The notes beneath the pieces were generated by a model. The model did no database searches. It was not told the origin of the DNA and worked only from the letters and a program-made list of their open reading frames with translations. A stretch of DNA of 62,046 nt, filler included, from Nitrospinae bacterium RIFCSPLOWO2_12_FULL_45_22 (GTDB taxonomy: Bacteria; 2-12-FULL-45-22): the NCBI GenBank assembly GCA_001803565.1. It is 5 parts of 5 records of this genome, joined end to end, with 100 filler letters (N's around TTAATTAATTAA, not from the genome) between each part and the next. Parts side by side here need not be neighbours in the genome. Positions count along the whole stretch, not along the records: positions 1 to 29,804 come from MHDQ01000092.1; 4 more parts are not named here. One strand, 5' to 3'. The position numbers and the translations under genes are program-made. Positions 22,838 to 56,421 of the stretch are shown here, piece after piece. Within the stretch, counting starts at the first letter, position 1; each line of letters begins with the position of its first letter.

Positions 22838-22940
22838 TTGAGTAGCTAAGTGGTTGAGTAGTTAACTGGTTGAGTGGGAGATTGGTTGAGTGGCTTCCTA
22901 CTTAACGACTCAACCAGTTTCCCACTCAACCATTTGACCA
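22827..22940. repeat. Inverted octamer-array hairpin (GGTTGAGT / ACTCAACC)
   Basis: Left arm 22827-22893 of TGGTTGAG-like units, right arm 22899-22940 of CTCAACCA-like units; supplies the stop codon of the GT2 gene. Confidence 0.85.
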
Positions 22941-22950
22941 GAGGTTAAAG

Positions 22951-23721
22951 ATGGATCCGATAATAATTTTATTAGGATTTTCTGTAGGAATTTTGGTTGG
23001 TCTTACTGGCATGGGAGGCGGTGCCCTTATGACGCCGCTCCTTATCCTGGTTATGGGGGTACGGCCGGTCATTGCAATCGGAACAGATTTGGCCTATGCG
23101 GCCTTAACCAAGGTATTTGGTGCCTGGCAGCACTATCGTCAGGGAAATGTTGATACTAAGATAGCTTTCCCTATGATGAGTGCTAGTATCCCTGCTAGCC
23201 TTTTGGGGGTTTACCTTATACACATATTAAAGTCCCGATACCAGGTTAATGTTGATGCGCTGATCAAGAGTTCTTTGGGACTGGTTTTGATTTTAGTGGC
23301 CTTAATCCTCTTTTCTTTGCCCCTGCTGTTCCAAAAAAGAGGTGATACTACACAACTTATCCACTTGTGGGGTCCCAAATCGATAAAGAGTTTAATTCTA
23401 GGTGCAGTAGTGGGATTTTTGGTAGGCTTTACCTCCATAGGAAGTGGCACCCTGATCTTTGCCGGGTTAGCCTTTTGCTCTGCCTTACCACTCAAGAAGA
23501 TAGTCAGTACCGATGTCTTTCATGGGGCGTTTCTTACTGCCGCCGCAGGTCTAGCTCATTGGTGGAGTGCCAATATTGACCTCGCACTGCTGTTTCCTCT
23601 GCTCATAGGTTCTATACCCGGGGTATTAATAGGTTCAAAGTTGAGTGTATCTTTGCCCAATTGGATTTTACGGCCCATCCTCGCCAGTATCCTCTTATGG
23701 GCGGGAATAAAGTTAATTTAG
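22951..23721 (+). CDS. TauE/SafE sulfite exporter family membrane protein
   Basis: GLTGMGGGALMTP, AIGTDL, VGFTSIGSG, GSIPGVLIGS. Confidence 0.9.
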   Translation: MDPIIILLGFSVGILVGLTGMGGGALMTPLLILVMGVRPVIAIGTDLAYAALTKVFGAWQHYRQGNVDTKIAFPMMSASIPASLLGVYLIHILKSRYQVNVDALIKSSLGLVLILVALILFSLPLLFQKRGDTTQLIHLWGPKSIKSLILGAVVGFLVGFTSIGSGTLIFAGLAFCSALPLKKIVSTDVFHGAFLTAAAGLAHWWSANIDLALLFPLLIGSIPGVLIGSKLSVSLPNWILRPILASILLWAGIKLI

Positions 23722-23735
23722 TGGAGGTGCCAAAT

Positions 23736-25841
23736 ATGCATGCTTTAAGGGATGTATGGGATATTTTTACTTCCAGCTCCTGGTGGTTAATCGGCAACCC
23801 TAAAGTAGAACAGGTTCGCTACTTTGAGATCCTGGACCATGCCCAGGGCATAGTAAAAGCCGCCCATGAGTTGGAAAGTATAGCAGTGGGTTATGCGCCG
23901 TTAGCGGAGCTACTATTCCCTGTAGGAGAGATATTTAAAGATAGCCCGGTGGGATTGGGTAGCCAGCGTATACCCTGGGACCCCAGTGGGCTTCATACCG
24001 GTGGGACTTCCCCGGTAATTCTGAAAGAAGCCGGGGTTATCTTTGGCTTAATCGGGCATAGAGAAGCCCGGGATGACCTTGGCGAAGGACCACATCTCAA
24101 TAAACAGATAGGAATAGCATTGGATTATGGCATTATCCCTATCTTATGCTGTGGAGAGCCAAAAGGTTCTCTGGTAGAGTCAGAGACCGCACGGGAAAAG
24201 GCTTTAGAAGCAGAATTACTACCAGCCCTCGAGGGGTTTACCGCCGAGGAGCTCCTCCAGGGACAGCTCACCATAGCTTATGAGCCGGGTCATGTTATTG
24301 GGTTGGACCAACCTGCAGATATGGGCTATATCAGGAGCGGATTCTCCTTGATAAACAAGATATTGAGCAAACATCATCTGGAGGGCTTAGCCAGCAAAGG
24401 GAGGCTCCTCTATGGTGGTGGGGTAAATTCCGATACTATCCAGCAGGTATGGGGCCTGGATAGGCCGACCAGGGTCTTCTCGGGCGAGAACTGGGCAGGC
24501 TTCCTGGTGGGTAGGGCCAGTGCCTCACCAGACTTTATGGATATGATGGAAAAATGGCAGACCAAATTACGAGGAAAGGCAAAGGAAAAGGTAGAGGAAG
24601 AGGTAAAGGTACTTCAACCTCAACCTCTGCCTATACCTCGGATAGTGGCCCCCAAAAAGAGGGTCAGAGTAGCCGTCTATGGTATAGGGGAAGTGGGAGT
24701 TGGGTTTATAACCTCGGTATTTAAAGAAGACAATATAGAGATTGTCCAGTTGTTTAATATGGAAGTGGATACCGAGGACATCCGGGCAAGGATTTATAAG
24801 AGCCTGTTTATTGATAAAGATAAGGTATTTATAGATGACCACCATGTGGTGATAAGGGATGAGGTAAATCTGGCCGGAGAGATAGAGCTCGATGGTGAAG
24901 CAATAGCACTACAGACCCTGTTGAACCCCATAGGAAATGATTATACCAGGGTAGTAAAGGTCTTACGAGACCAGAGGATGTTAGTCACCCCGGCCCATGA
25001 CCCCCGAGAAGCAGCCTCACAGATGGTAAAGGATATAGATATTGTCGTTTTTACCGTCGGGGGACTGCTTAAAGAGTGGCACTTGCTCAATCCATTCCTG
25101 GAAGCCGGTGCTAAGCACATCATTGTCAGCTCTACCAGCCCGGCCGCCGATATCTCTATTGTCCCCGGATATAACCACCACCTGTTTAATCCTGCCCTGC
25201 ATAAGACTATAGCCTTAGGCTCTTGTACCAGCAATTGTGGGATACCCATAGCCGCTATTGTGGAGGAGGCTTTAGGCAAAGGTTCTATCCTGGGTTCCCT
25301 GGTGGTTACTATGCATTCCAAGACTAACTCCCAACAGATTGGTGACAAAGGGGCAGACCCTAAAGAAGAGGGCCTGCTCAATAACTTAATCTTAACTACC
25401 ACGGGGATCAAAGATATATTGAACAAAGAAGGCTTTTTCCCCTCCATCGGTACTGCTATAGATGCCTTCTCTACCCGGGCCCCGGTAGAAAAGGCATCCC
25501 TATTGGTTATGCTCCTACAAGTCCAATGGGCCGATGGGCTGACGCGTGAGGGCTTGCGTGAGATATTCAAAAAGGCTGCGGCCAGCCCCCGATGGCAAGG
25601 GATAGTGAATTATGATGCCGACCATGATGGGTCCAAGATCTACCAGAAAAGCCCTGCCGCAGCGGATATCTTTGGCCGGTTGATTAATGTGTGGCCCAAT
25701 CCCTGTCTGACCGAGAAACATAATGGGAAAAAGAGTAGCTCAGGTATCTCTACCCTGATTATCCCGGCGGCCTATGCCAATGTCTATGGCTATGGCTGCC
25801 AGGCCAAACGCCTCATGCAATATATGGGACAATTCCTCTAA
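23736..25841 (+). CDS. Divergent triosephosphate isomerase - glyceraldehyde-3-phosphate dehydrogenase fusion protein
   Basis: TIM motifs IGNPK, LIGHREAR, PILCCGE, IAYEP, LLYGGGV, LVGRAS; GAPDH motifs VAVYGIGEVG, SCTSNC, TMHSKTNSQ, LTTTG, RAPV, YANVYGY; ATG 23736 follows SD GGAGG. Confidence 0.85.
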   Translation: MHALRDVWDIFTSSSWWLIGNPKVEQVRYFEILDHAQGIVKAAHELESIAVGYAPLAELLFPVGEIFKDSPVGLGSQRIPWDPSGLHTGGTSPVILKEAGVIFGLIGHREARDDLGEGPHLNKQIGIALDYGIIPILCCGEPKGSLVESETAREKALEAELLPALEGFTAEELLQGQLTIAYEPGHVIGLDQPADMGYIRSGFSLINKILSKHHLEGLASKGRLLYGGGVNSDTIQQVWGLDRPTRVFSGENWAGFLVGRASASPDFMDMMEKWQTKLRGKAKEKVEEEVKVLQPQPLPIPRIVAPKKRVRVAVYGIGEVGVGFITSVFKEDNIEIVQLFNMEVDTEDIRARIYKSLFIDKDKVFIDDHHVVIRDEVNLAGEIELDGEAIALQTLLNPIGNDYTRVVKVLRDQRMLVTPAHDPREAASQMVKDIDIVVFTVGGLLKEWHLLNPFLEAGAKHIIVSSTSPAADISIVPGYNHHLFNPALHKTIALGSCTSNCGIPIAAIVEEALGKGSILGSLVVTMHSKTNSQQIGDKGADPKEEGLLNNLILTTTGIKDILNKEGFFPSIGTAIDAFSTRAPVEKASLLVMLLQVQWADGLTREGLREIFKKAAASPRWQGIVNYDADHDGSKIYQKSPAAADIFGRLINVWPNPCLTEKHNGKKSSSGISTLIIPAAYANVYGYGCQAKRLMQYMGQFL

Positions 25842-25923
25842 TTAAACCCAAATAGAAATCAAATAGAAATGATTTAATGAACCATCACTTTATTTTAAAT
25901 TCTTTTACCCCTAAACTATAACT

Positions 25924-26005
25924 AACGTCATCAGTAATTAGTCATTGGCCAATGCAGGCTATAAGGCTTTAAACTAATGACTAATGACGAGTAACCAATG
26001 ACGTT
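25924..26005. repeat. Inverted heptamer-array hairpin (GTCATTA / TAATGAC)
   Basis: AACGTCATCAGTAATTAGTCATTGG ... CTAATGACTAATGACGAGTAACCAATGACGTT with complementary termini. Confidence 0.75.
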
Positions 26006-26060
26006 CCATATATGATCAACGAATTAGAATGAACATATCAAAAATTAATGGAGGTGCTAA

Positions 26061-26864
26061 ATGGATCATCTAGACGAGCTAGAAAGTAAGAGTATCTATA
26101 TTATCAGGGAGGCGTATTATCAATTCAGAGACATCGGGATGCTCTGGTCTATCGGCAAGGATTCGACTACACTATTGTGGCTCTGCCGCAAGGCCTTCCT
26201 CGACCAGATCCCTTTCCCGGTCATCCATATTGATACCGCCTACAAATTTCCGCAGATCTATGGCTTCAGGGACAGATATGCAAGAGAATGGGGGTTGGCT
26301 CTGAAAGTGGCGCGAAACGAAGAGGCCCTCATGCAAGGGGTGGGCCCAAATAGTAATGACAAATTAAAGTGCTGCACGGAGCTCAAGACCATTGCATTAA
26401 AGCAACTAATTGCCAGGGAGGGCTATAAGGCTATTTTGCTGGGGATCAGACGGGATGAGCATGGTATAAGGGCCAAAGAGAGATACTTTTCTCCCCGGGA
26501 TCAACAATTCACCTGGGACTACAAGAACCAGCCTGCGGAGCTTTGGGACCAGTATAAATCCGAAGCAGATGATGAAACCCATTTACGGGTACATCCCCTG
26601 CTGCATTGGACTGAAGTAGATATCTGGAGCTATATCAAGCGAGAAAATATCCCCTTTATAGACCTTTACCGGGCAGTGGACGGGAAGAGATACCGTAGCA
26701 TTGGGTGCGAAACCTGTTGTGATCCAATACCCTCAGAGGCCGATGATATTGATTCTATTCTGGACGAACTTATCAATACTAAAACACGGGAAAGAGCTGG
26801 CCGGGCGCAAGACAAAGAACAGGCTTATATGATGCAGAAGCTTCGGGCATTGGGTTATATGTAA
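26061..26864 (+). CDS. cysD: Sulfate adenylyltransferase subunit 2
   Basis: LESKSIYIIREA, WSIGKDS, RAKERYFS, RVHPLLHWTE, YRSIGC; upstream of cysN. Confidence 0.93.
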   Translation: MDHLDELESKSIYIIREAYYQFRDIGMLWSIGKDSTTLLWLCRKAFLDQIPFPVIHIDTAYKFPQIYGFRDRYAREWGLALKVARNEEALMQGVGPNSNDKLKCCTELKTIALKQLIAREGYKAILLGIRRDEHGIRAKERYFSPRDQQFTWDYKNQPAELWDQYKSEADDETHLRVHPLLHWTEVDIWSYIKRENIPFIDLYRAVDGKRYRSIGCETCCDPIPSEADDIDSILDELINTKTRERAGRAQDKEQAYMMQKLRALGYM

Positions 26865-26866
26865 GG

Positions 26867-26899
26867 ACGTTCAGGGTTCAACGTTCAACGTTCTGCGTT
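26867..26899 (+). repeat. Left heptamer arm (ACGTTCA)n of four-helix-bundle element
   Basis: ACGTTCA GGGTTCA ACGTTCA ACGTTCT GCGTT immediately before ATG 26900. Confidence 0.85.
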
Positions 26900-27280
26900 A
26901 TGAAGATAGAAAGATTTGAGGATATAGAGGCATGGCAAGCAGCACGGAAACTGGTCCAGGAGGTCTATCGAATTACAAAAGGGATAGATTTTTCAAAAGA
27001 CTATGGGTTAAAGGATCAGATACAGAGGGCGGCTGTATCTGCTATGGCCAATATAGCAGAAGGGTTTGATGATCGATCAAATCAAGCATTCATCCAGTTT
27101 CTCAATTATGCTCTTCGATCTGTAACAGAAGTCCAGTCCCATTTATATGTAGCATTGGATCAGGAATATATAACCCAGAGTAACTTTGACGAACTTTATC
27201 AGCAGGCCAATCGAATAAAAAGTATAATAAACGGGTTTATCAGATACCTAAAAACATCAAAATTTGGCTATAAAACTTAG
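26900..27280 (+). CDS. Four helix bundle protein (23S rRNA-IVP / Avd-like family)
   Basis: FEDIEAWQ, DYGLKDQIQRAAVSAMANIAEGF, QFLNYALRSVTEVQSHLYVALDQEYI. Confidence 0.92.
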   Translation: MKIERFEDIEAWQAARKLVQEVYRITKGIDFSKDYGLKDQIQRAAVSAMANIAEGFDDRSNQAFIQFLNYALRSVTEVQSHLYVALDQEYITQSNFDELYQQANRIKSIINGFIRYLKTSKFGYKT

Positions 27281-27342: not shown

Positions 27343-28743
27343 ATGGAGGATAAAAAATTAAAGTTGGTTATTGTGGGTCATGTGGACCATGGAAAATCAA
27401 CCCTTATAGGTAGATTGCTCTATGATAGCGGTTCTTTACCTCAGGGCCTTATGGAAGAGATTGAGCAGAGTCTGGTCCAATTGGGCAAACCAGTAGAATT
27501 TGCATATATAATGGATCACTTAGAAGAAGAGAGGATAGAAGAGAAGACTATTGATACGGCCCAGTCTTTCTTCAAAACGGATAATCGGAATTATGTGATT
27601 ATCGATACCCCGGGCCATAAGGAATTCATCAAGAATATGCTTACTGGAGCTTCGCAGGCCGACGCCGCAATCCTTATCGTCTCGGCAATAGAAGGCATAG
27701 AAGAGCAGACCAGGCGGCATGCTTATATTTTGGGTATGTTGGGATTGAAACAGGTCATTTTGGCCATTAATAAAATGGATTTAATAAATTATAGCCAGAC
27801 GCGATTCCAGGAGTTAAAAAATGAGGCTTTGTTATTTCTCGATTCTATGAAAATAAAGCCTCAACGTATCATCCCCATTTCTGCTAAGCAAGGAGATAAT
27901 ATTGGCTCTGTTTCAGGTAATATGAGTTGGTACCAGGGGCCATTTATCCTGGAGGCATTAGACCAGTTTAATATCAGGGAGTCCCTGAATGATAAGCCCT
28001 TTCGGTTTCCTATCCAGGACGTTTATTATGACGTTCTACGTTCAACGTGCGACGTTCCCGCAGAACGAAGAACCTCGAACGTAGAACCTATCCTGGTAGG
28101 AAGGGTGTCATCAGGTAAAATAAGGGTAGGTGATGAAGTAATAATATTTCCTACCAAGACCAGGACCAGAGTGAAATCTATCGAGATATTTCATAAAGAG
28201 AAAGATATAAAGTTAGAGGCCGAGGCAGGAGAGAGCATCGGGTTAACTTTGGAAGACGACCTAGAGGTAAGAAGGGGGCAGGTCATTTGTGCCTATTCCC
28301 CAACAGCCACAGCTCAATACCCATGGTTAACCACCAGGATAAACACAAATATCTTTTGGATCTCTCCCATCCCTTTAAATATTGATGCTCAATCGAGTAT
28401 TTCCTCACCCAACCACCCAACCACCCAACCGCCCAACCGCTCAACCACTCAACCACTCAACCACTCCCCCATCACCATTCGCTGCGCTACGACTGAAGAG
28501 ATTTGCTCGATAGATAAGATTGAGACAAAGTTTGATTCTTCTACCTTAGAGATCATAGAGGAAGATGGGAAGGTATTGGGAGAGACAGAGGTGGGAAAAG
28601 TTGTTATTTCTATTGAAAAACCCATGGTATTTGAGGACTTTAATGAGATTGAAGAACTTGGACGCTTTGTCCTGGTAAAGGAAGGACAGATCTGTGCCGG
28701 GGGCATCATTACAGATATAGATAGAGGTATAGGTGGAGGATAA
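27343..28743 (+). CDS. cysN: Sulfate adenylyltransferase subunit 1 (GTPase) with two repeat-derived in-frame insertions; no fused APS kinase
   Basis: [32 protein letters not shown]...AGGII; follows cysD. Confidence 0.9.
28031..28089. repeat. 4+4 heptamer inverted array inserted in frame in cysN
   Basis: ACGTTCT ACGTTCA ACGTGCG ACGTTCC cgc AGAACGA AGAACCT CGAACGT AGAACCT. Confidence 0.88.
28406..28466 (+). repeat. Octamer tandem array (CACYCAAC, about 7.6 copies) in frame in cysN
   Basis: CACCCAAC x3, CGCCCAAC, CGCTCAAC, CACTCAAC x2, CACTC; encodes the low-complexity stretch [20 protein letters not shown]. Confidence 0.9.
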
Positions 28744-29047
28744 GGTGTTTAAGACATTTAAAGATATGCCCATATGGCAAGAGGCAATGGCAGTGGCTGA
28801 GAATATTTTTAAACTTACAGAAAATTTACCTACGAAAGAAGATTATGGGTTTACCTCGCAAATCCGGAGGGCAGCCTTAAGCATTTCTGCCAATATAGCG
28901 GAGGCCTATGGCCGCAATCATACATTGGATAAGATCAATTTCTATTACTTTGGCCGGGGATCAATTACGGAGACCCAAAGCCAGCTTGAATACGGCCGCA
29001 GAGCTCGATACCTTATAACTTCTTTTAAAAGTAAAATTGAGAAATAG
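28733..29047 (+). CDS. Four helix bundle protein, short (last helix apparently deleted)
   Basis: [44 protein letters not shown]; flanked by complementary hexamer arrays (28713-28739 AGRTAK-like; 29054-29076 ACCTCT-like). Confidence 0.85.
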
Positions 29048-29804: not shown

Positions 29805-29904
29805 NNNNNNNNNNNNNNNNNNNNNNNNNNNNNNNNNNNNNNNNNNNNTTAATTAATTAANNNNNNNNNNNNNNNNNNNNNNNNNNNNNNNNNNNNNNNN
29901 NNNN
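29805..29904. other. Artificial contig linker
   Basis: N44-TTAATTAATTAA-N44 (stops in all six frames), identical at four places. Confidence 0.98.
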
Positions 29905-37009: not shown

Positions 37010-37109
37010 NNNNNNNNNNNNNNNNNNNNNNNNNNNNNNNNNNNNNNNNNNNNTTAATTAATTAANNNNNNNNNNNNNNNNNNNNNNNNNNNNNNNNNNN
37101 NNNNNNNNN
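37010..37109. other. Artificial contig linker
   Basis: N44-TTAATTAATTAA-N44. Confidence 0.98.
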
Positions 37110-44514: not shown

Positions 44515-44614
44515 NNNNNNNNNNNNNNNNNNNNNNNNNNNNNNNNNNNNNNNNNNNNTTAATTAATTAANNNNNNNNNNNNNNNNNNNNNNNNNNNNNN
44601 NNNNNNNNNNNNNN
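44515..44614. other. Artificial contig linker
   Basis: N44-TTAATTAATTAA-N44. Confidence 0.98.
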
Positions 44615-46245
44615 AGCCGATAAACTATGCCTGTGCCTCTAATTATTCAGAGATGATTAACGAGGCTATAGCCCGAGAAAAGTTAAACCGGGTGGTATTG
44701 GCTGCCTGCTCCTGTTGTTCCTCAGAACAAATCTGTTATAGCTGCACCCAGCCGAGGATCAGGTGCAAAGAAAACCTGTTCCAAAAAGGCCTATTGGATC
44801 AACGCCTCTTTGAATTTGTTAATATCAGGGAACAATGTGCCTGGATTCATCAGGCTGATAAAAGCCAGGCTACAGCTAAGGCTAAAGACTTGATAAAGAT
44901 GGCAGTCTCGCGGGCCCGCTGGTTAGAAGCGCCTCCCAAAGAGGAAATAAAGATAGAAAAGAAGGCAATAGTTATTGGTGGCGGGCCAGCCGGTATTCAA
45001 TGCGCTATTGACTTAGCAGAACAGGGTTTCCCGGTTACTTTAGTAGAAAAGGAACCTCAACTGGGTGGGAGGTTAAATCAATTAAATACCCCCTCCTTTT
45101 CCCATGAAGGGCAAGGCCCTGCGGCTACATCAGGCAATCGTATAGAGCCTAAAGAATTGCTGAACCAGCTTATTGACCGGCTACAAAAACTCCCGGTGCA
45201 GATCATGACCAACACCGAGGTTAAAGGAGTAGAAGGGGGTTTAGGGAATTTTCTGATCTCTTTAAAACGGGAGAATAAGACCCCTAAGCTGACTGCCGGT
45301 GCTATTGTCCTGGCCACCGGCGCAGATTTCTACCGGCCTAATGGCGAATATGGCTATGGTACCGCGTCCAATGTCATTACCAATAATGAGTTGACAGTGA
45401 AGTGGCCAGAGATATCCCCGGATAAGATAAAAAAGGTCACCTTTATCCAATGTGTAGGGTCTAACGGGCATATTGATAAGCGGGGCTGTTCGAAATACTG
45501 CTGTGAGACGGCCCTCCAGCAGGCCCTTGGCCTGAAAGAAAAAGGTGTCGAGCCCACTATCCTCTATCAAGAATTGTATCTTAATAATGCTAAAGCCCAG
45601 GGCTTATTAAGGCAGGCCCAGGCAGCCGAGATCACCTTCATTCCTTATAATGGTACGAAACCACCCCAGATTAATTCTTCTAAAGGTGGTAATTCCCTTA
45701 GCATTAAATTGCCAGGCCGAAAAGGAAGGGCTATCTCAACTGATATGATTATTTTATCGGTGGGGATGGTAGCAAGAGAAGATTCAAAGGAGTTAGCCAA
45801 ACTCCTACGGGTACCTCAAGGCCAGGATGGCTTTTTTAAAGAAAAGGATCCTCTATTAGGACTGGTCGAGACTCAAGTCCCAGGAATATTCCTGGCCGGT
45901 AGCTGTCAGGGGCCTAAAGGCACCATTGATTCCATGATCCATGCCTCGGCCGCTGCTTCTAAAGCCGCTATATTGCTGGCAAGAGAAAAGATTTATCTGG
46001 ACAGCTTGGTGAACCGGCTTGATGAGGTAAAATGCCGGGCTTGCGGGACATGCGTTACCGTATGTGAGTTTGGTGCCCCCAGGATAATCTTATCTGCCCA
46101 GGGGAAGCCCGTGGCCAGAATAGACCCGGTACTCTGCCAGAGCTGCGGTACCTGTGCGGCATATTGTCCGTCGGGCGCTATAACTGCCCCTTGCTTCACC
46201 GATAAGCAGATAAACAGTATGCTGGAATCCCTCTTGGCTTCCTGA
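44615..46245 (+). CDS. Heterodisulfide reductase subunit A-like flavoprotein, 5' truncated
   Basis: Frame open from the contig edge (..NYAC..), VNIREQCAW, VIGGGPAG, FIQCVGS, CSKYCC, GIFLAGSCQGPK, two C-terminal 4Fe-4S motifs. Confidence 0.88.
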
Positions 46246-46936: not shown

Positions 46937-48079
46937 ATGGAAGATGTGAAGCGAGCCATTAAAACAAATAAAGTCTATTATTGTCTGGATTGCGGCAAAT
47001 GTACTGCCGTCTGTCCGGTATCAAAAGTTAATCCCAGATTTTCTCCCCGGCTGACCGTACAGAATACTGTACTGGATCATGAAGAGAGGGTATTTAAGGA
47101 TGAAAACCTGCTCTGGTCTTGCTTGAGCTGTCGGATGTGTAGTGAGCGGTGTCCGTCGGATGTGCATTTTGATTATTTTACAAGAGATTTAAGGATTATT
47201 GCGCAGAGGGATGGGGCTGAGAGCCCTTGTTCCCATAGCGGTGCCCTCCAATCTCTGATGCGGATAATGACTGCTCCACAATTAAGCCAGAACCGTTTAG
47301 AGTGGATTACACCAGATTTGCGAGTAGCAGAAAGCGGGGAGTATCTCTATTTTGTGGGTTGTCTGCCCCATTATCAGGAATTTTTTGGCTATCTGGGGCT
47401 GGATCTGCTGGCTATTGCCCGGGGAACAATAAAAGCCCTTAATAGCCTGGGTATAAATCCTGTAGTGATGGCTGAGGAGAGGTGTTGTGGTCATGACCTG
47501 CTCTGGACCGGCGAGGTAGAATCTTTCAGGCGCCTGGCTGAGTATAATATTCAGCAGATAGCCAATACCGGTGCCAAGCAGATAATTACTGCCTGTGCAG
47601 AATGTTACCGGACGCTTAACGATGATTTTCCCCGCTATTTAGGCAAGAAAGATTATCAGGTCTGGCATCTGTCACAATTTTTGGCCGAAAAGTTCTCCCA
47701 GGACGGTTGGAAGCCCAAAAAGAGGGTTCAAGCTATCACTTACCATGACCCCTGTCGTCTGGGGAGGTTTTCGGGGGTCTTTGAAGAGCCGAGGCAGCTC
47801 CTCAACGCTATTCCTGGTATAGAGTTGAAAGAGATGCCCAGGAATCGCCACCGCTCATTGTGTTGCGGTACGGTAGCCTGGAATAATTGTAATTCTTTTT
47901 CTAAGATGATCCAGGCAGAGCGGCTCAAGGAAGCCAGGACCACCGGGGCAGAGCTATTAATAACTGCTTGCCCCAAATGCCAGATCCATTTCAAATGTGC
48001 CATGTTAAATCAGGGAATAGATGACGAACTGAAGATAGAGATGGAGGATTTAGCTGTCCTAGTAGCAGGCGCCCTCTAA
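46937..48079 (+). CDS. HdrD-like Fe-S oxidoreductase (two 4Fe-4S motifs plus two CCG domains)
   Basis: CLDCGKCTAVCP, CLSCRMCSERCP, ERCCG, YHDPCRLGR, LCCG, TACPKC. Confidence 0.9.
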   Translation: MEDVKRAIKTNKVYYCLDCGKCTAVCPVSKVNPRFSPRLTVQNTVLDHEERVFKDENLLWSCLSCRMCSERCPSDVHFDYFTRDLRIIAQRDGAESPCSHSGALQSLMRIMTAPQLSQNRLEWITPDLRVAESGEYLYFVGCLPHYQEFFGYLGLDLLAIARGTIKALNSLGINPVVMAEERCCGHDLLWTGEVESFRRLAEYNIQQIANTGAKQIITACAECYRTLNDDFPRYLGKKDYQVWHLSQFLAEKFSQDGWKPKKRVQAITYHDPCRLGRFSGVFEEPRQLLNAIPGIELKEMPRNRHRSLCCGTVAWNNCNSFSKMIQAERLKEARTTGAELLITACPKCQIHFKCAMLNQGIDDELKIEMEDLAVLVAGAL

Positions 48080-48121: not shown

Positions 48122-48204
48122 TGCAAAATTAACAATATAAAATTAGCAATTAACAAGAAGGAGTTAATTTTGAAATGCTAATTGCTAATTTTGCATTTTG
48201 CATT
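48122..48204. repeat. AT-rich inverted heptamer-array hairpin
   Basis: TGCAAAATTAACAAT..AAAATTAGCAATT vs AATTGCTAATTTTGCATTTTGCA. Confidence 0.65.
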
Positions 48205-48234
48205 GAAACAGAAACTTTAAGGAGGTATAAAGCG

Positions 48235-50676
48235 GTGTCAAAGAATGATTTGAGGATGGGGGTTTTTGTCTGCGAATGCGGGCTGAATATTGCTGGTACC
48301 GTAGATTGCAAGGCAGTCTCAGAGTATGCCAGGACCTTACCCGATGTAGTAGCTGTTATCCAGAATAAGTATACCTGTGCTGATCCCGGGCAGAATGAGA
48401 TAAAGAAGGCTATCGCTGAACATAACCTGAACCGGGTGGTAGTAGCCTCCTGCACGCCCAAGATCCATGAACCTACTTTTAGGCAATGTGTGGCTGAAGC
48501 CGGGTTAAACCCTTATCTCTTTGAGATGGTCAATATCAGAGAGCATTGTAGTTGGGTTCACCAGAACCAAAAGGATAGAGCTACTGAAAAGGCCAAAGAT
48601 TTAGTAAGAAGCGGCGTCGCCCGGGCCCGGTACCTGGAGACCCAGGACGAAGCTGAAGTCAAGGTTACTAAATCTGCCCTGGTTATCGGTGGTGGGATAG
48701 CAGGAATCCAAGCAGCCTTAGACCTGGCCGATGGTGGCCATAAGGTATATCTGGTCGAGAAAGAACCGAGCATTGGCGGTATTATGGCTCAAATAGATAA
48801 AACCTATCCTACTATGGACTGCTCCATATGAATTCTCGGCCCCAAGATGATGGATGTCGGTCGACATCCCAACATTGAGTTGCTGGTCTATAGCGAGGTA
48901 GAAGATGTCAGCGGATATATAGGTAACTTCAAGGTAAAGGTAAGAAAGAAGGCCCGCTATGTAGGTGAGAAGGAATGCACCGCTTGTGGCGAGTGTGCCA
49001 AAATATGTCCGGTAGTAAAACCGGATGAGTATCAGATGGGTCTCTCTTCCCGCAAGGCCATATATATGCCCTTCCCGCAAGCTGTCCCATCGGCTTATAT
49101 CCTCAATATGGCAGATTGTTTGGGTAATAATCCGATTGCCTGCGGAAAATGCCTGGAGAAGTGCGAAAAGAAATGTATTGATTACGATATACAGGACCAG
49201 ATCCTGGAGCTAGAAATAGGAACCATCATTGCTGCTACCGGCATGGATGTCTATGATCCTACTGAACTGGATGAATACGGATATACCAGATATGAAAATG
49301 TTATCACCAGTATGGAATTTGAGCGCCTGATCTGTGCTGGTGGCCCAACCGAGGGGCATTTTGTAAGACCTACGGACTGGAAGACCCCTAAGAGTGTTGC
49401 CTTTATCCAGTGTGTCGGTTCTCGCTCAGAAAAGCGCGGTGCACCCTATTGCAGCAATATCTGTTGTATGAACACCATCAAGGATACTCTCCTTCTGGCA
49501 GATCACTACCCGGGTATGCAGTGCAAGGTGTTCTATATGGATATCAGGGCCTTTGGCAAGGGTTTTGAAGACCTATACAAACGGAGTAAGGAGGAAGGGG
49601 TCCAGTATATAAGGGGTCTGCCGGGTGAGATTGAAGAAGACCCGGTGACCAAGAACCTTATTTTAAGGGCAGAGAATACTACTACTCGTGAGATAGAAAC
49701 CCATGAAGTAGAGATGGTAGTCCTGTCGGTTGGGGTATTGCCCAGGAGGGATGGCGATGTGGTGCAAAAATTACTTACCCTCTCCCGTACCTCTGATGGC
49801 TTCTTCCTGGAGGCGCATCCGAAACTGAAACCGGTAGATGCCCCCACCCGTGGCGTATTTTTCGCCGGATGTACAGAATATCCCAAAGATGTGAAGGATA
49901 GTGTCACGCAAGCAGGTGCTGCAGCGGCCCGGGCCAGCATCATCCTTAACGCGGGCAAAGTGAAGATCGAGGCCATAACCTCCAGGCTCATTAAAGAGAA
50001 GTGTACCTTCTGTGGCCTCTGTGCCAAAGTATGCCCCTACCATGCCATTACCGCGGCAGATAGGAAGAATAAGGTCTATCCCATGGTGATAGAGGCTGCC
50101 TGTGCGGGCTGTGGTGCCTGTGCAGCCGAATGCCCGGTAGATGCTATTAAGATGCGACACTTTACTGATGAGCAGATCATGTCCCAGGTTGAGGCCTTAT
50201 TAGAGAAAGACAGCCAGGAGGCTATTGTCTGCTTTGCCTGCAACTGGTGCTCTTATGCCGGGGGAGATATGGCTGGGACCTCTCGGCTCCAATATCCACC
50301 CAATGTCCGCTTAATTCGGACAATGTGCAGTGGCCGGGTAGATAAGAAGTTTGTCTTGCAGGCCTTCAAACTAGGTGCCCCGCTGGTATTGGTCTCTGGC
50401 TGCCATTTTGCTGACTGTCATTATATCAGTGCCGTGCACTGGACCCAGAGACGGGTAGAGAGGCTATGGGATACCCTGGAGCAAAAGGGTATCCGGCCAG
50501 AAAGGCTGCAACTGGAGTGGATAAGTGCCGCTGAGGGACAGAAGTTTGCCAAGGTGATGCGAGGACTGGAGGAGATGCTCAAGGCCGTTACCCGAGAAGA
50601 GATTGAGTATACCATGAAGGTCCTGGGTGACGCCAAGGAAGTCACGCCAGAGCCAAGCCTTGTAGCCGTATCATAA
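48235..50676 (+). CDS. hdrA: Selenocysteine-containing HdrA fused to C-terminal MvhD domain (813 aa)
   Basis: GTG start behind AAGGAGG; the two tracked ORFs are in one frame joined by TGA 48829-48831 in TMDCSI-U-ILGPKM, a position that is Cys in HdrA; C-terminal CNWCSYAG...MCSGRV...GCHFADCHY. Confidence 0.92.
48846..48876 (+). promoter_or_regulatory. Candidate bacterial SECIS hairpin
   Basis: GGATGTC-GGTC-GACATCC perfect 7-bp stem (48852-48869) with lower GATG/CATT stem; loop G is 28 nt after the UGA. Confidence 0.75.
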
Positions 50677-51459: not shown

Positions 51460-51523
51460 AATATTCAATAATATCTCGTTATGCAATATTAATATTCCCC
51501 ATTCTATATAATATCTGTTGGGT
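51460..51523 (+). other. attI region
   Basis: AT-rich segment upstream of intI ending ATAATATCT-G|TTGGGT; GTTGGGT (51517-51523) is the exact complement of ACCCAAC in the first attC. Confidence 0.7.
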
Positions 51524-51541
51524 GAGAGAGAAGGAGACACT

Positions 51542-52471
51542 ATGCCGAAGTTGACGAAGACAGCACAACGGGAAGCGAAGACGGCTTTCTCACAAGGCCT
51601 CCACGCCTTCGTTCAGAAGATGCGGGAGTACGTGAGCGCCGAGGATGGTGAATGGACGGTCAAAGGGTTCATCGACATCTATCGGAACATATACACCATC
51701 AGTTCCGACACGAAGATCGTCTCAAAGATCCTCGAAATCCATCTCTTCCCACAAATCCTTCAGTTTGCCCAAGAACAGGGCTACTCCATCGTCCTTGCTG
51801 AACACCAGAACTGGTATCCAGATCTGAGCTTTGTGTGTCTGGCCGATCAGCGCATCAAGTTTGCCGTGGACCTGAAGACCACTTACCGTGACCCTGACTG
51901 CCCCGGTCACGTGAACGGATTCACTCTTGGCAGTCACGGGGCATATTTCAAGGACCGAACGTCGACAAAGAATATCCAGTTTCCTTACGACGAATACTCT
52001 GGCCACTTCTGTCTCGGGATCATCTACACCCGAGCTGATGCCAGGGACGTTGACGGGACAGAGATCATCAACGTCAAGGAACTCGACGAGGAAACGGAGC
52101 ATCCTCTCCGCATCGGGCACAGAGAAGTCACCACCGTAGACAGTTTGCGCTCCATCGCCTCGGTAATCAAAGATTTCCAATTCTTCGTCTGCGAGAAGTG
52201 GCAACTCGCGAGCGATCGCCAGGGCTCAGGTAATACTGCCAACATCGGCTCAATCACGGCCATTGACGACATCTTGAGGGGAAACAGCATCTTCGCCAAA
52301 CTCGGAGAAGACTGGTTTGACGAGTACTGGATGAACTACGGCGTAACCACGATGAAGAAAGGCCGGAAGACAATCCCAATAAAAAGACTGGAGGACTTCA
52401 TCGCCTTCAAACGCGGTGACAAGGACCTCATCGTTCCTGTCGCGACGAAACGGAAAAGGAAGGAAGACTGA
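51542..52471 (+). CDS. Type II restriction endonuclease, EcoRV family
   Basis: SDTKIVSKILE, QNWYPDL, AVDLKTTY (PD...DxK), FTLGS, TKNIQFPY, GSGNTANIGS mirror EcoRV motifs. Confidence 0.88.
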   Translation: MPKLTKTAQREAKTAFSQGLHAFVQKMREYVSAEDGEWTVKGFIDIYRNIYTISSDTKIVSKILEIHLFPQILQFAQEQGYSIVLAEHQNWYPDLSFVCLADQRIKFAVDLKTTYRDPDCPGHVNGFTLGSHGAYFKDRTSTKNIQFPYDEYSGHFCLGIIYTRADARDVDGTEIINVKELDEETEHPLRIGHREVTTVDSLRSIASVIKDFQFFVCEKWQLASDRQGSGNTANIGSITAIDDILRGNSIFAKLGEDWFDEYWMNYGVTTMKKGRKTIPIKRLEDFIAFKRGDKDLIVPVATKRKRKED

Positions 52472-53415
52472 TGCGGGTTGTTGTGCCCCCAATCAAGAGC
52501 CAGGGGATCAAGACAAAACTCGTGCCATGGATACAAGCACTCGTTCCCGATGTTTCTGGGCACTGGATCGAGCCTTTCTTGGGTACGGGTGTAGTTGCGT
52601 TCAATTCAGGGTTTCAGCGCGCTCTCCTGAGTGACACGAATCCGCATGTGATCCGGTTCTATCAGCAAGTCCAACAGGGAGTCATCCGAGCTTCTCGCGT
52701 AAGGGCGTATCTTCAGGAAGAGGGGAAACGCCTTCAGTGCGCTCGGAATAGTGGATACGATCATTTCAATCTCATCAGGGATCGCTTCAACAGAGATCAT
52801 GATCCTCTTGATTTTCTCTTCCTTTCCAGGGCAGGTTTCAATGGGATGATGCGTTTCAATAGGAGGGGCGAATGGAACATCCCCTTCTGCAAGAAGCCGC
52901 AGCGTTTCAGTCGATCCTACATTACGAAAATCGTCAATCAAGTACACGATGCCGCGTGTCTGATACAGCCCGAGTGGGAGTTTCGGGTCGCTCCGTTTCA
53001 AGAGATCATCCCCCAGGCGACCTCTAGTGACATCATCTACTGTGATCCACCATATGCAGGTCGGTATGTTGATTACTATAATGGCTGGACAGACGAGGAC
53101 GAGCAGAGGTTATTTGAGTTGCTCTCATCAACACCGGCAAAGTTCATACTTTCGACATGGCACCATAACGATTATAGACATAACGATATGGTGGAACGTT
53201 ACTGGAGAAGATTCAACATCGTTACCCGGGATCACTTCTATCATTCTGGAGCAAAGATCGAGAACAGAAATACCATTGTGGAGGCGCTTGTTTTCAACTT
53301 TGATGCCAATATCGAGGAGCATAACCACGGCGTGAGGCCCAAGCCCGAACAGCTGATGCTTTTCGAAGAGAGAGCAGAATACATGACCCAACAATTGGGT
53401 CGAGCGGACGTGTGA
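52471..53415 (+). CDS. DNA adenine methyltransferase (Dam/M.EcoRV family)
   Basis: VPPIKSQGIKTKLVP, EPFLGTG, FNGMMRFN, YCDPPY; translationally coupled (TGATG). Confidence 0.92.
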   Translation: MRVVVPPIKSQGIKTKLVPWIQALVPDVSGHWIEPFLGTGVVAFNSGFQRALLSDTNPHVIRFYQQVQQGVIRASRVRAYLQEEGKRLQCARNSGYDHFNLIRDRFNRDHDPLDFLFLSRAGFNGMMRFNRRGEWNIPFCKKPQRFSRSYITKIVNQVHDAACLIQPEWEFRVAPFQEIIPQATSSDIIYCDPPYAGRYVDYYNGWTDEDEQRLFELLSSTPAKFILSTWHHNDYRHNDMVERYWRRFNIVTRDHFYHSGAKIENRNTIVEALVFNFDANIEEHNHGVRPKPEQLMLFEERAEYMTQQLGRADV

Positions 53416-56321: not shown

Positions 56322-56421
56322 NNNNNNNNNNNNNNNNNNNNNNNNNNNNNNNNNNNNNNNNNNNNTTAATTAATTAANNNNNNNNNNNNNNNNNNNNNNN
56401 NNNNNNNNNNNNNNNNNNNNN
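56322..56421. other. Artificial contig linker
   Basis: N44-TTAATTAATTAA-N44. Confidence 0.98.

What the first reader, a model, noticed from the sequence alone, without database searches (positions are those of the whole stretch)
23736..25841. Divergent TIM-GAPDH fusion enzyme embedded between a sulfite exporter and cysDN in a polysaccharide locus
Seen: one 701-aa ORF with a TIM barrel, a Lys/Glu/Pro-rich linker and a GAPDH. Catalytic residues appear kept (TIM Lys in GNPK, His in GHRE, Glu in AYEP; GAPDH Cys in SCTSNC, His in TMHS). Ligand-binding motifs are rewritten: lid loop EPVWAIGTG to EPGHVIGLD, YGGS to YGGG, GGAS to GRAS, GFGRIG to GIGEVG, and the Arg-rich S-loop becomes short and acidic. 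Established: TPI-GAPDH fusions are known from stramenopile mitochondria, while the familiar bacterial fusion is PGK-TPI; TIM and GAPDH paralogs act on tetrose phosphates (erythrulose-phosphate isomerase, Epd). Inference: a non-glycolytic isomerase-dehydrogenase for an unusual substrate such as a sulfo- or C4 sugar derivative, possibly making a polysaccharide substituent.
Basis: partly seen in the sequence, partly recalled or inferred. Interest (0 to 1): 0.82.

Follow-up and report, generated by a model that had tools for sequence, protein, structure and literature searches.

The report
Rare divergent bacterial TIM-GAPDH fusion enzyme
One gene of an uncultured Nitrospinota-type bacterium joins a triose-phosphate-isomerase-like domain to a GAPDH-like domain; the fusion is real, very rare and very divergent, but its sulfur-gene neighbours here look accidental.

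Summary
Window 23736-25841 (+) is one intact 701-aa ORF: a TIM domain (aa 18-272), an unconserved linker, and a complete type-I-GAPDH fold (aa ~308-701). Seven full-length orthologues (63-99% identity; the two that carry an organism name are Nitrospinae/Nitrospinota) keep both domains and all catalytic residues.

An exhaustive profile search of 1.84 billion representatives found only 12 family clusters. Both domains give the same tree, apart from canonical TPI and GAPDH and from the eukaryotic TPI-GAPDH fusion. I read this as one old, independent bacterial fusion.

The sulfur/polysaccharide reading is not supported. Neither orthologue with readable flanks (86% and 66% identity) lies next to tauE or cysDN. 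Contigs of closely related strains match the window only from 2 bases before the ATG. No APS kinase or sulfotransferase was found on the contig.

The anion-binding residues that are kept fit a phosphorylated C3 substrate. In the one related genome I could search, the fusion is the only TIM homologue, beside a canonical gap-pgk pair.

My best reading (about 0.5) is a stand-alone isomerase/dehydrogenase of the triose-phosphate node with altered cofactor, phosphate or oligomer properties. A different phospho-sugar substrate remains open (about 0.3).

The parts
23736..25841 (+). Whole TIM-GAPDH fusion ORF (701 aa plus stop), P0001
23723..23727 (+). GGAGG ribosome-binding site, 8 nt before the ATG. 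It follows the TauE stop codon (23719-23721) by one base.
   Evidence: homology to L008 and to variant contigs begins at 23734
23787..24551 (+). TIM-barrel domain (aa 18-272). Catalytic Asn21, Lys23, His108, Glu110 and Glu183. Loop 6 reads PGHVIGLDQPA, loop 7 YGGG, loop 8 GRAS.
   Evidence: Pfam 112.6 bits; 32 of 40 columns that are at least 85% conserved in 127 canonical TIMs are kept
24561..24656 (+). Lys/Glu/Pro-rich linker (aa ~276-307). It is unconserved and predicted disordered.
   Evidence: 3 of 32 columns invariant; pLDDT below 50 at aa 280-297; 63 nt replaced by 69 nt in variant contigs, both multiples of three
24657..25838 (+). Type-I-GAPDH-fold domain (aa 308-701). GxGxxG 316-321, Asn341 in place of Asp32, clade-specific beta-rich insert ~356-412, Cys497, His527, Thr530, Arg581, Asn682, and a shortened S-loop ~529-550.
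22951..23721 (+). Context only: TauE/SafE-family permease upstream. The adjacency is not kept in relatives.
   Evidence: Pfam 163.5 bits; no NCBIfam hit
25917..26012 (.). Context only: 96-bp inverted-repeat element in the 219-nt spacer before cysD. It is present in many other sequence contexts in the metagenomes.
   Evidence: arms 35 nt, 71% complementary; summed contig depth 73-77 against about 12, with loose ends at its borders
26061..26864 (+). Context only: CysD
27343..28743 (+). Context only: CysN-like GTPase with no APS-kinase domain

Best explanation
The gene encodes a real, intact, cytoplasmic two-domain enzyme of a rare bacterial family. The family arose from one old fusion that is independent of the eukaryotic TPI-GAPDH fusion.

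Inferred mechanism. The N-terminal TIM barrel interconverts a ketose phosphate and an aldose phosphate through an enediol, using Lys23, His108 and Glu183. The C-terminal GAPDH-fold domain then oxidises the aldehyde on Cys497, with His527 as the base, and passes the hydride to NAD(P)+. The reaction could also run in reverse.

The most likely substrates are the triose phosphates: DHAP to G3P to the acyl-enzyme, then to 1,3-bisphosphoglycerate or 3-phosphoglycerate. That would make it a stand-alone gene of the triose-phosphate node in a Nitrospinota-type lineage.

The rewritten loops, the Asp32-to-Asn change and the short S-loop without its Arg cluster point to changed cofactor preference, changed use of inorganic phosphate, or a changed oligomer. 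They do not by themselves point to a change of chemistry.

Its place between tauE and cysDN in this strain is an accident of gene order.

Shown here: architecture, conservation, rarity, congruent domain trees, unconserved context. Inferred: catalysis, substrate, direction.
For: 1. Both domains are under strong constraint and the linker is not. In seven orthologues, 128 of 262 TIM columns and 108 of 170 catalytic-domain columns are invariant, against 3 of 32 linker columns.

2. The TIM catalytic residues are kept in all seven orthologues. 32 of 40 columns that are at least 85% conserved in 127 canonical TIMs are kept. Lid loop 6 has the canonical length, with the Gly that aligns with the canonical loop-6 Gly (recalled as Gly171) retained.

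3. In the GAPDH domain Ser-Cys-Thr, His, the Thr of HSKT, the TTG turn, Arg581 and Asn682 are kept. From recalled knowledge of B. stearothermophilus GAPDH these are Cys149, His176, the substrate-phosphate site Thr179/Arg231, and the nicotinamide-binding Asn313.

4. The best solved-structure sequence matches are genuine TPIs (E 9e-23) and GAPDHs (B. subtilis GapB, E 2.4e-20). L-erythrulose-1-phosphate isomerase scores lower (E 3.8e-14).

5. In the related genome G001 the fusion is the only PF00121 match, where the same search hits all 14 control genomes. A canonical gap (232 bits) is followed by pgk with no tpiA after it. Enolase, a class II aldolase-like gene, AlaRS, RecA and SecY were all found there.

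6. The context differs in every relative examined. That fits a housekeeping-type gene that stands alone.

7. The TIM domains of all 12 fusions form one clade against 127 canonical TIMs (support 0.99). The GAPDH-domain tree has the same branching order.
Against: All TpiA, GapA and Epd equivalog models score far below their cut-offs, for example TIGR00419 42 bits against 130.6 and TIGR01534 97 against 367.2. Pfam Gp_dh_N gives no hit.

Near-invariant TPI residues are changed: Ser96 to Arg, Trp168 to His, Thr172/Gly173 to Leu/Asp, Ser211 to Gly, Gly233 to Arg, and the Glu77/Arg98 pair is lost (numbering recalled). The GAPDH Arg195 region is deleted. Real triose-phosphate enzymes rarely tolerate such changes.

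G001 already has a canonical gap, so a second GAPDH needs a reason.

G001 is incomplete or unusual: neither PdxJ nor PdxS was found. The missing canonical tpiA is therefore weak evidence.

The two standalone relatives nearest this clade have lost Cys149 and His176. The scaffold can therefore serve a non-catalytic role.

One 4,224-bp contig carries a copy split by a frameshift at the start of the GAPDH domain.

In this strain the 14-nt spacing after tauE does suggest co-transcription.
Confidence: 0.5

Rival explanations
1. It is a non-glycolytic isomerase-dehydrogenase that acts on a different phosphorylated sugar. Examples are a tetrulose/tetrose phosphate giving a phospho-aldonate (Epd-like chemistry) or another short phospho-aldehyde. 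The rewritten phosphate-gripper loops and S-loop would then reflect a substrate of different length or charge.
For: The ligand-contacting loops 6, 7 and 8 and the S-loop are the parts that changed, while the catalytic residues stayed. Loop-8 position 233 varies across the family (R, K, E, A or T, never Gly). All equivalog cut-offs are missed by wide margins. G001 has a canonical gap-pgk pair. In the P0017 clade a HAD-type phosphatase lies directly upstream on the same strand in 2 of 2 loci with upstream sequence. Those two loci are 81% identical, so this may simply be inherited gene order.
Against: No conserved pathway neighbours exist in the Nitrospinota clade. Epd models score lower than GAPDH models (56.5 against 97 bits) and the tetrulose-phosphate isomerase structure scores lower than TPIs. 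PdxJ, the consumer route for 4-phosphoerythronate, was not found in G001. In G001 no other TIM homologue is available to serve as TPI.
Confidence: 0.3
2. One reading: an enzyme pair for a sulfonated substrate (for example sulfolactaldehyde to sulfolactate), or for a sulfated polysaccharide substituent, working together with TauE and CysDN.
For: In this strain the gene starts 14 nt after a TauE-family permease gene and lies 219 nt before cysD, at the end of a 22-kb polysaccharide locus. A sulfonate could in principle occupy the Thr/Arg anion site (inference).
Against: Neither close orthologue with flanks has tauE or cysDN beside it. Variant contigs in 2 of 4 runs, and L008, lose similarity to the window at 23734. 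The fusion-to-cysD spacer holds a repeat element at which contigs break. Among the window ORFs of at least 150 aa that I scanned against Pfam, none matched an APS-kinase, sulfotransferase or sulfoquinovose-pathway family; two ORFs on the contig (6523-7356 and 29180-29804) had no or partial hits. Distant family members lie in unrelated contexts.
Confidence: 0.05
3. It is a largely non-catalytic or regulatory protein: a pseudoenzyme or moonlighting scaffold that keeps the two folds for binding metabolites or partners.
For: The standalone relatives P0012 and P0016, which group with the Nitrospinota clade, carry Asp-Ser in place of Ser-Cys and Arg or Gln in place of His176. The GAPDH S-loop and the TIM interface pair Glu77/Arg98 are remodelled.
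Against: In the fusions every catalytic residue of both domains is invariant over 63-99% identity, and is kept in most distant fusion clades.
Confidence: 0.08
4. It is an assembly or annotation artefact: two adjacent genes read as one.
For: One JGI contig yields separate TIM (349 aa) and GAPDH (360 aa) products.
Against: Seven independent full-length orthologues exist, and five further distant fusion clusters. The linker variant keeps the frame in all 4 runs. The only indels listed inside the ORF are a compensating +1/-1 pair 3 nt apart.
Confidence: 0.01

Closest known systems
Eukaryotic mitochondrial TPI-GAPDH fusion (stramenopiles and others). Nakayama et al. 2012, PMC3527533: I saw the abstract and three passages. 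Liaud et al. 2000 is known to me only as cited there.
   Same: Same domain order (TIM, then GAPDH) in one polypeptide. It is the nearest cluster by language-model features (0.91 and 0.89).
   Different: The eukaryotic type (example P0023, 573 aa) keeps the canonical IAYEPIWAIGTGK, YGGS, GGAS, GFGRIG, SCTTNC and Arg-rich S-loop. It is 24% identical to P0001 and scores 129 bits against the family profile. In both domain trees it lies among canonical sequences, outside the bacterial family. The fusions are therefore independent.
Bacterial triose-phosphate isomerase TpiA (PF00121, TIGR00419)
   Same: TIM fold, the catalytic Asn/Lys/His/Glu residues, an 11-residue lid, and 32 of 40 highly conserved columns.
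   Different: HSERR becomes HREAR, PVWAIGTG becomes PGHVIGLD, YGGS becomes YGGG, GGAS becomes GRAS. It scores 42 bits against a cut-off of 130.6.
Type I GAPDH (GapA/GapB, TIGR01534). The best solved match by sequence is B. subtilis GapB, 8wwz.
   Same: The whole fold (target TM 0.79-0.87), Cys/His catalysis, Thr179/Arg231-type anion site, GxGxxG, Asn313.
   Different: About 20% identity and no Gp_dh_N Pfam hit. Asp32 becomes Asn. It has a ~57-aa beta-rich insert in the NAD domain and an S-loop that is shorter and lacks Arg195/Arg197. It scores 97 bits against a cut-off of 367.
Erythrose-4-phosphate dehydrogenase Epd, and L-erythrulose-1-phosphate isomerase (PDB 11ef)
   Same: They are paralogues of GAPDH and TIM that act on C4 phosphates, which is the precedent for substrate drift in these folds.
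   Different: They score lower than the genuine GAPDH and TPI models or structures: 56.5 bits against 97, and E 3.8e-14 against 9e-23. They are not fused in the known cases (recalled).
Bacterial PGK-TPI fusion (NF010569)
   Same: A fusion of TPI with a neighbouring glycolytic enzyme.
   Different: The partner and the domain order differ. Only the TIM part matches, at 88.6 bits against a cut-off of 883.

Membership tests
Triose-phosphate isomerase (TpiA) | Pfam TIM domain above the gathering score | tested here: met
   112.6 bits against 20.1, aa 18-272
Triose-phosphate isomerase (TpiA) | NCBIfam equivalog score above the curated cut-off | tested here: not met
   TIGR00419 42 against 130.6; NF000722 77.3 against 293
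Triose-phosphate isomerase (TpiA) | Catalytic Asn, Lys, His and Glu | tested here: met
   N21, K23, H108 and E183 are invariant in 7 of 7 orthologues
Triose-phosphate isomerase (TpiA) | Canonical phosphate-gripper motifs (loop 6 PVWAIGTG, loop 7 YGGS, loop 8 GGAS) | tested here: not met
   PGHVIGLD, YGGG and GRAS; loop lengths are kept
Triose-phosphate isomerase (TpiA) | DHAP/G3P isomerase activity | not testable with these tools
   Indirect only: it is the sole TIM homologue in G001
Type I phosphorylating GAPDH | Gp_dh_C and Gp_dh_N Pfam domains | tested here: inconclusive
   Gp_dh_C 29.9 against 24.4. Gp_dh_N gave no hit at E up to 1, but the whole fold matches at target TM 0.79-0.87.
Type I phosphorylating GAPDH | Equivalog score above the cut-off | tested here: not met
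   TIGR01534 97 against 367.2
Type I phosphorylating GAPDH | Catalytic Cys149 and His176 | tested here: met
   C497 and H527 are invariant in the 12 sequences of A3. They are lost only in the standalone P0012 and P0016.
Type I phosphorylating GAPDH | Anion sites: Thr179, Arg231, and Arg195 of the S-loop (roles recalled) | tested here: inconclusive
   T530 and R581 are kept. The Arg195 region is deleted; the invariant K543 might substitute for it.
Erythrose-4-phosphate dehydrogenase (Epd) | Equivalog score above the cut-off | tested here: not met
   TIGR01532 56.5 against 530.55
ArsJ-associated GAPDH | Model score above the cut-off | tested here: not met
   NF033735 90.7 against 450. None of the flanking ORFs scanned gave an ArsJ or MFS Pfam family; an arsJ neighbour was not specifically sought.
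Eukaryotic TPI-GAPDH fusion | Common descent of the fused gene | tested here: not met
   P0023 falls outside the family clade in the TIM tree (support 0.99) and groups with a plant GAPDH in the GAPDH tree

The most novel reading that the evidence does not exclude
The family is a new isomerase-dehydrogenase pair for a C3-C4 phospho- or sulfo-aldehyde that has not yet been recognised. The rebuilt anion-binding loops mark a new specificity. In this strain the enzyme has been recruited into a tauE-linked operon. A milder novel version: it is the only TPI of this lineage, hard-wired to a GAPDH that is non-phosphorylating or NADP-linked, so that DHAP is channelled straight to 3-phosphoglycerate.
Probability: 0.3. 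Interest if true: 0.7.

Novelty: new variant of a known kind. Interest (0 to 1): 0.45.

Why it matters
TPI and GAPDH are among the most conserved enzymes known. A bacterial lineage that fused them independently of eukaryotes, and then rewrote the phosphate-gripper loops and the S-loop while keeping every catalytic residue, is a natural experiment. It shows how far these active sites can drift.

If the fusion is the lineage's only TPI, automatic 'complete glycolysis' calls for these uncultured Nitrospinota rest on a very atypical enzyme. If it has a new substrate, it defines a new enzyme family.

The standalone relatives that lack Cys and His add a possible pseudoenzyme branch.

The practical result for this scan is that the attractive sulfur/polysaccharide story rests on gene order in one strain. 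It should not be carried forward.

Tried and rejected
The window's own genome: none is held, so I could not test whether this organism has separate tpiA and gapA. A search by phylum around G001 returned only G001 itself.

Expression: no RNA holder was listed for window 22900-26900.

Rfam at gathering threshold gave 0 matches in the window. Promoter-like and terminator-like sites were not above the shuffle expectation: 5 against 6.1 and 2 against 3.7.

A shared sigma-factor neighbour in L001 and L008 was rejected. The two are different paralogues, 32% identical.

L002 (Myxococcaceae) is a canonical TPI, not a family member. L013-L015 are weak matches to the GAPDH region only (26-31%) and were not examined further.

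The second word-based homologue search with alignment A3 added only fragments and canonical GAPDHs.

GC content of the gene is 0.48-0.51, against 0.40-0.46 for its neighbours. I judged this too small a difference to argue for transfer.

Literature: four searches and the passages read in PMC3527533, PMC10839748 and PMC3578206 gave no report of a bacterial TIM-GAPDH fusion. PMC10839748 states that Nitrospinota genomes hold all genes for glycolysis and gluconeogenesis and cites its Table S5. Supplements are closed, so I could not see which gene was counted as TPI.

Full report
**1. The observation**

Window 23736-25841 (+) is a single open frame of 701 codons plus the stop. The ATG at 23736 has a GGAGG 8 nt upstream and lies 14 nt after the stop of the preceding TauE-family gene. 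A longer TTG-started version (23661) would overlap that gene. It is unlikely, because both an 86%-identical orthologue (L008) and variant contigs in sequencing runs begin to match the window exactly at 23734.

Pfam finds a TIM domain at aa 18-272 (112.6 bits) and Gp_dh_C at aa 504-637 (29.9 bits). An AlphaFold2 model built on 12 family sequences has mean pLDDT 79.5. It is poorly defined only in the linker (280-297), the S-loop (532-550) and 657-666. Foldseek aligns its C-terminal ~395 residues to whole type I GAPDH chains at target TM 0.79-0.87 and 18-23% identity. The NAD-binding half is therefore present although Pfam Gp_dh_N does not detect it.

**2. It is a gene, not a chimera**

A word-based search returned seven full-length proteins of 701-719 aa, 63-99% identical and all with both domains. 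The one that carries a name is annotated as from a Nitrospinae bacterium. The search also returned one 392-aa fragment and one unrelated plant GAPDH.

In the alignment of seven sequences (P0001 and six of these orthologues), 128 of 262 TIM columns and 108 of 170 GAPDH catalytic-domain columns are invariant, against 3 of 32 linker columns.

Contigs of four public DNA runs (groundwater, soil, sediment) were laid on 22900-26900. In each of the four runs one variant contig replaces 63 nt of the linker with 69 nt, so the frame is kept. The only indels listed inside the ORF are a +1/-1 pair 3 nt apart.

There is one exception. A 4,224-bp JGI contig gives a 349-aa TIM product that runs out of frame just after the linker, and a 360-aa GAPDH product that starts at an internal Met. 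This is either a sequencing error or a decayed copy.

**3. How rare it is, and how it is related to known enzymes**

A profile of the seven sequences was scored against all 1.84 billion representatives. 11,681 proteins reached E of 1e-3 or better, which is ordinary TIMs and GAPDHs. Only 15 reached 1e-30:
- the Nitrospinota cluster, at 1,422 bits;
- eleven proteins at 252-465 bits;
- three at 124-140 bits, one of which (P0023) is a canonical stramenopile-type TPI-GAPDH.

The eleven comprise five further full-length fusions (P0011, P0013, P0014, P0017, P0020; 29-39% identical to P0001), four apparent fragments, and two standalone GAPDH-like proteins (P0012, P0016). Each of these clusters has only 1-2 member sequences.

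In a tree with 127 canonical TIMs, the 12 fusion TIM domains form one clade (support 0.99). The GAPDH-domain tree has 18 family and 8 canonical sequences. It separates the family from the canonical sequences (support 0.71, long branch) and shows the same branching order as the TIM tree: P0020, then the P0013 group, then P0017, then P0011/P0014 together with the Nitrospinota clade. The eukaryotic-type fusion sits with canonical sequences in both trees.

I conclude that there was one old fusion, independent of the eukaryotic one, and that the two domains have diverged together since.

P0012 and P0016 group with the Nitrospinota clade. They begin at the linker and carry Asp-Ser in place of Ser-Cys and Arg or Gln in place of the catalytic His.

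**4. What is kept and what is changed**

TIM domain. 40 alignment columns are at least 85% conserved in 127 canonical TIMs, and the Nitrospinota clade keeps 32 of them. These include the catalytic Asn, Lys, His and Glu, the Glu of HSE, and the Tyr and Gly residues of loop 7.

The changes are:
- TGE becomes TGG.
- HSERR becomes HREAR.
- One Lys becomes Gln and one Gln becomes Glu.
- Trp-Ala of the lid becomes His-Val.
- Ser of YGGS becomes Gly.
- At lower canonical conservation, Thr-Gly of the lid becomes Leu-Asp, and the second Gly of GGAS becomes Arg.

Loop lengths are unchanged. Across the wider family the loop-8 position is R, K, E, A or T, and never Gly.

GAPDH domain, aligned to a canonical sequence. 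Residue roles are recalled from the B. stearothermophilus literature.
- Kept: GxGxxG, Ser-Cys-Thr, His, the Thr two positions after it, the Thr-Gly turn, Arg581 (Arg231) and Asn682 (Asn313).
- Changed: Asp32 is Asn. About six residues of the S-loop, including the Arg cluster, are missing. Invariant Lys543 and Glu545 take their place.
- Added: a beta-rich insert (~aa 356-412), present only in the Nitrospinota clade and in P0012/P0016.

My reading is that the chemistry of both domains and an anionic (phosphate-type) substrate handle are preserved. Cofactor preference, the inorganic-phosphate site and the tetramer interface are probably altered. This is inference.

**5. The surroundings**

The window is a scaffold. 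N spacers start at 29805, and bases 1-29804 equal a 29,804-bp metagenome contig. Only that piece is real neighbourhood.

It carries a + strand polysaccharide locus: a beta-barrel porin, Wza-like exporter, Wzc-like kinase, GT4 and GT2 glycosyltransferases, an epimerase, AsnB, an acetyltransferase, two LPG_synthase_TM proteins, PMT_2, an amine-oxidase/GT2 fusion, a deacetylase and YdjM. It then continues with TauE, the fusion, CysD, a 23S-IVP-family gene, a CysN-like GTPase, a second IVP-family gene and a truncated phosphodiesterase. Among the ORFs of at least 150 aa that I scanned, none matched an APS-kinase, sulfotransferase or sulfoquinovose-pathway family.

The 219-nt spacer between the fusion and cysD contains a 96-bp inverted-repeat element (25917-26012). 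Summed contig depth there rises to 73-77 from about 12, and many contigs break at its borders.

**6. Is the context conserved?**

It is not.
- L008 (86% identity, 5.1 kb of upstream sequence): a divergently transcribed sigma-70 gene, then DksA/BON, a PMT-family glycosyltransferase and an NTP-transferase.
- L001 (66% identity, 100-kb Nitrospinota contig): a GGDEF protein and SpoVG upstream, another sigma factor downstream. The two sigma factors are only 32% identical.
- None of the 7 flanking proteins from these two loci has a tblastn match in the window at E of 1e-5 or better.
- In runs X3 and X12, variant contigs differing from the window at about 7-9% of aligned bases carry 824 and 231 nt of unrelated sequence upstream of 23734.
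- The distant P0017 clade (L009, L010, L012) has an FGE-sulfatase-family gene and a HAD phosphatase upstream and a TRAP transporter downstream. L010 and L012 are 81% identical, so this may simply be inherited gene order.

**7. Is it the only TPI?**

No genome is held for the window. In G001, the 1.5-Mb genome behind L001, the only PF00121 match is the fusion. The same search hits all 14 control genomes. G001 has a canonical gap (232 bits) followed by pgk and then a gene on the opposite strand, with no tpiA.

Enolase, a class II aldolase-like gene, AlaRS, RecA and SecY were found in G001. Neither PdxJ nor PdxS was found. The genome is therefore incomplete or unusual, and the absence of a canonical tpiA is only suggestive.

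A comparative paper states that Nitrospinota genomes hold all genes for glycolysis and gluconeogenesis (PMC10839748; passages seen).

**8. Verdict**

The claim that this is a divergent fusion is right, and I add that it is an independent, very rare bacterial family. The sulfur/polysaccharide inference fails its own test.

The most likely function is isomerisation plus thiol-dependent oxidation or reduction at the triose-phosphate node, with non-standard cofactor, phosphate or oligomer properties (0.5). A different phospho-sugar substrate is the main rival (0.3). The sulfo-substrate reading (0.05), the non-catalytic reading (0.08) and the artefact reading (0.01) are minor.

I found no description of a bacterial TIM-GAPDH fusion in four literature searches. 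I rate it a new variant of a known kind, of moderate interest.

Noticed in passing
window 25917-26012: A 96-bp inverted-repeat element (35-nt arms, 71% complementary) sits between the fusion and cysD. Summed contig depth is 73-77 against about 12 in the flanks, and many contigs end at its borders. It looks like a REP/MITE-like repeat spread through these genomes. Only one copy is in the window.
   Followed up: partly
window 48175-50676 (+), stop at 48829-48831: An HdrA-like/FlpD (MvhD) ORF is interrupted by one in-frame TGA inside the motif MDCSI-TGA-ILGPK, the place where some HdrA proteins carry selenocysteine (recalled). It is a candidate selenoprotein, next to HdrB/C-like (46937-48079) and HdrA-like (44653-46245) genes. 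I did not look for a SECIS element.
   Followed up: partly
window 29805-29904, 37010-37109, 44515-44614, 56322-56421, 59178-59193: The window holds runs of N (paired 44-N blocks at four places and one 16-N run). It is therefore a scaffold of several contigs, and gene order across these points is not evidence of adjacency.
   Followed up: yes
window 26900-27280 and 28733-29047: Two '23S rRNA intervening sequence protein' family genes are interleaved with cysD and the cysN-like gene (cysD, IVP, cysN, IVP).
   Followed up: no
P0012, P0016 (found): Standalone 393- and 409-aa GAPDH-like proteins group with the Nitrospinota fusion clade. They share its NAD-domain insert but lack the catalytic Cys and His, so they are possible pseudoenzymes. 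Their genomic context could not be read.
   Followed up: partly
P0163 and P0161, one 4,224-bp JGI contig: A copy of the fusion (84-90% identical to the window's protein) is called as two genes, because of a frameshift just after the linker.
   Followed up: partly
window 51518-53415: An EcoRV-family restriction endonuclease (368 bits) is followed directly by a D12-class N6-adenine methyltransferase. This is a type II restriction-modification pair.
   Followed up: no
window 57028-59876 (-): A molybdopterin oxidoreductase is split into a 241-aa N-terminal ORF and a 700-aa ORF. The junction lies beside a masked N run (59178-59193), so I could not tell a Sec codon from a frameshift or an assembly gap.
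   Followed up: no
L012 9051-9713 and L010 655-1353: In the distant P0017 clade of the fusion family, a HAD_2 phosphatase lies directly upstream on the same strand. It resembles phosphoglycolate phosphatase and PpaX but scores below their cut-offs. An FGE-sulfatase-family gene precedes it on the other strand.
   Followed up: partly
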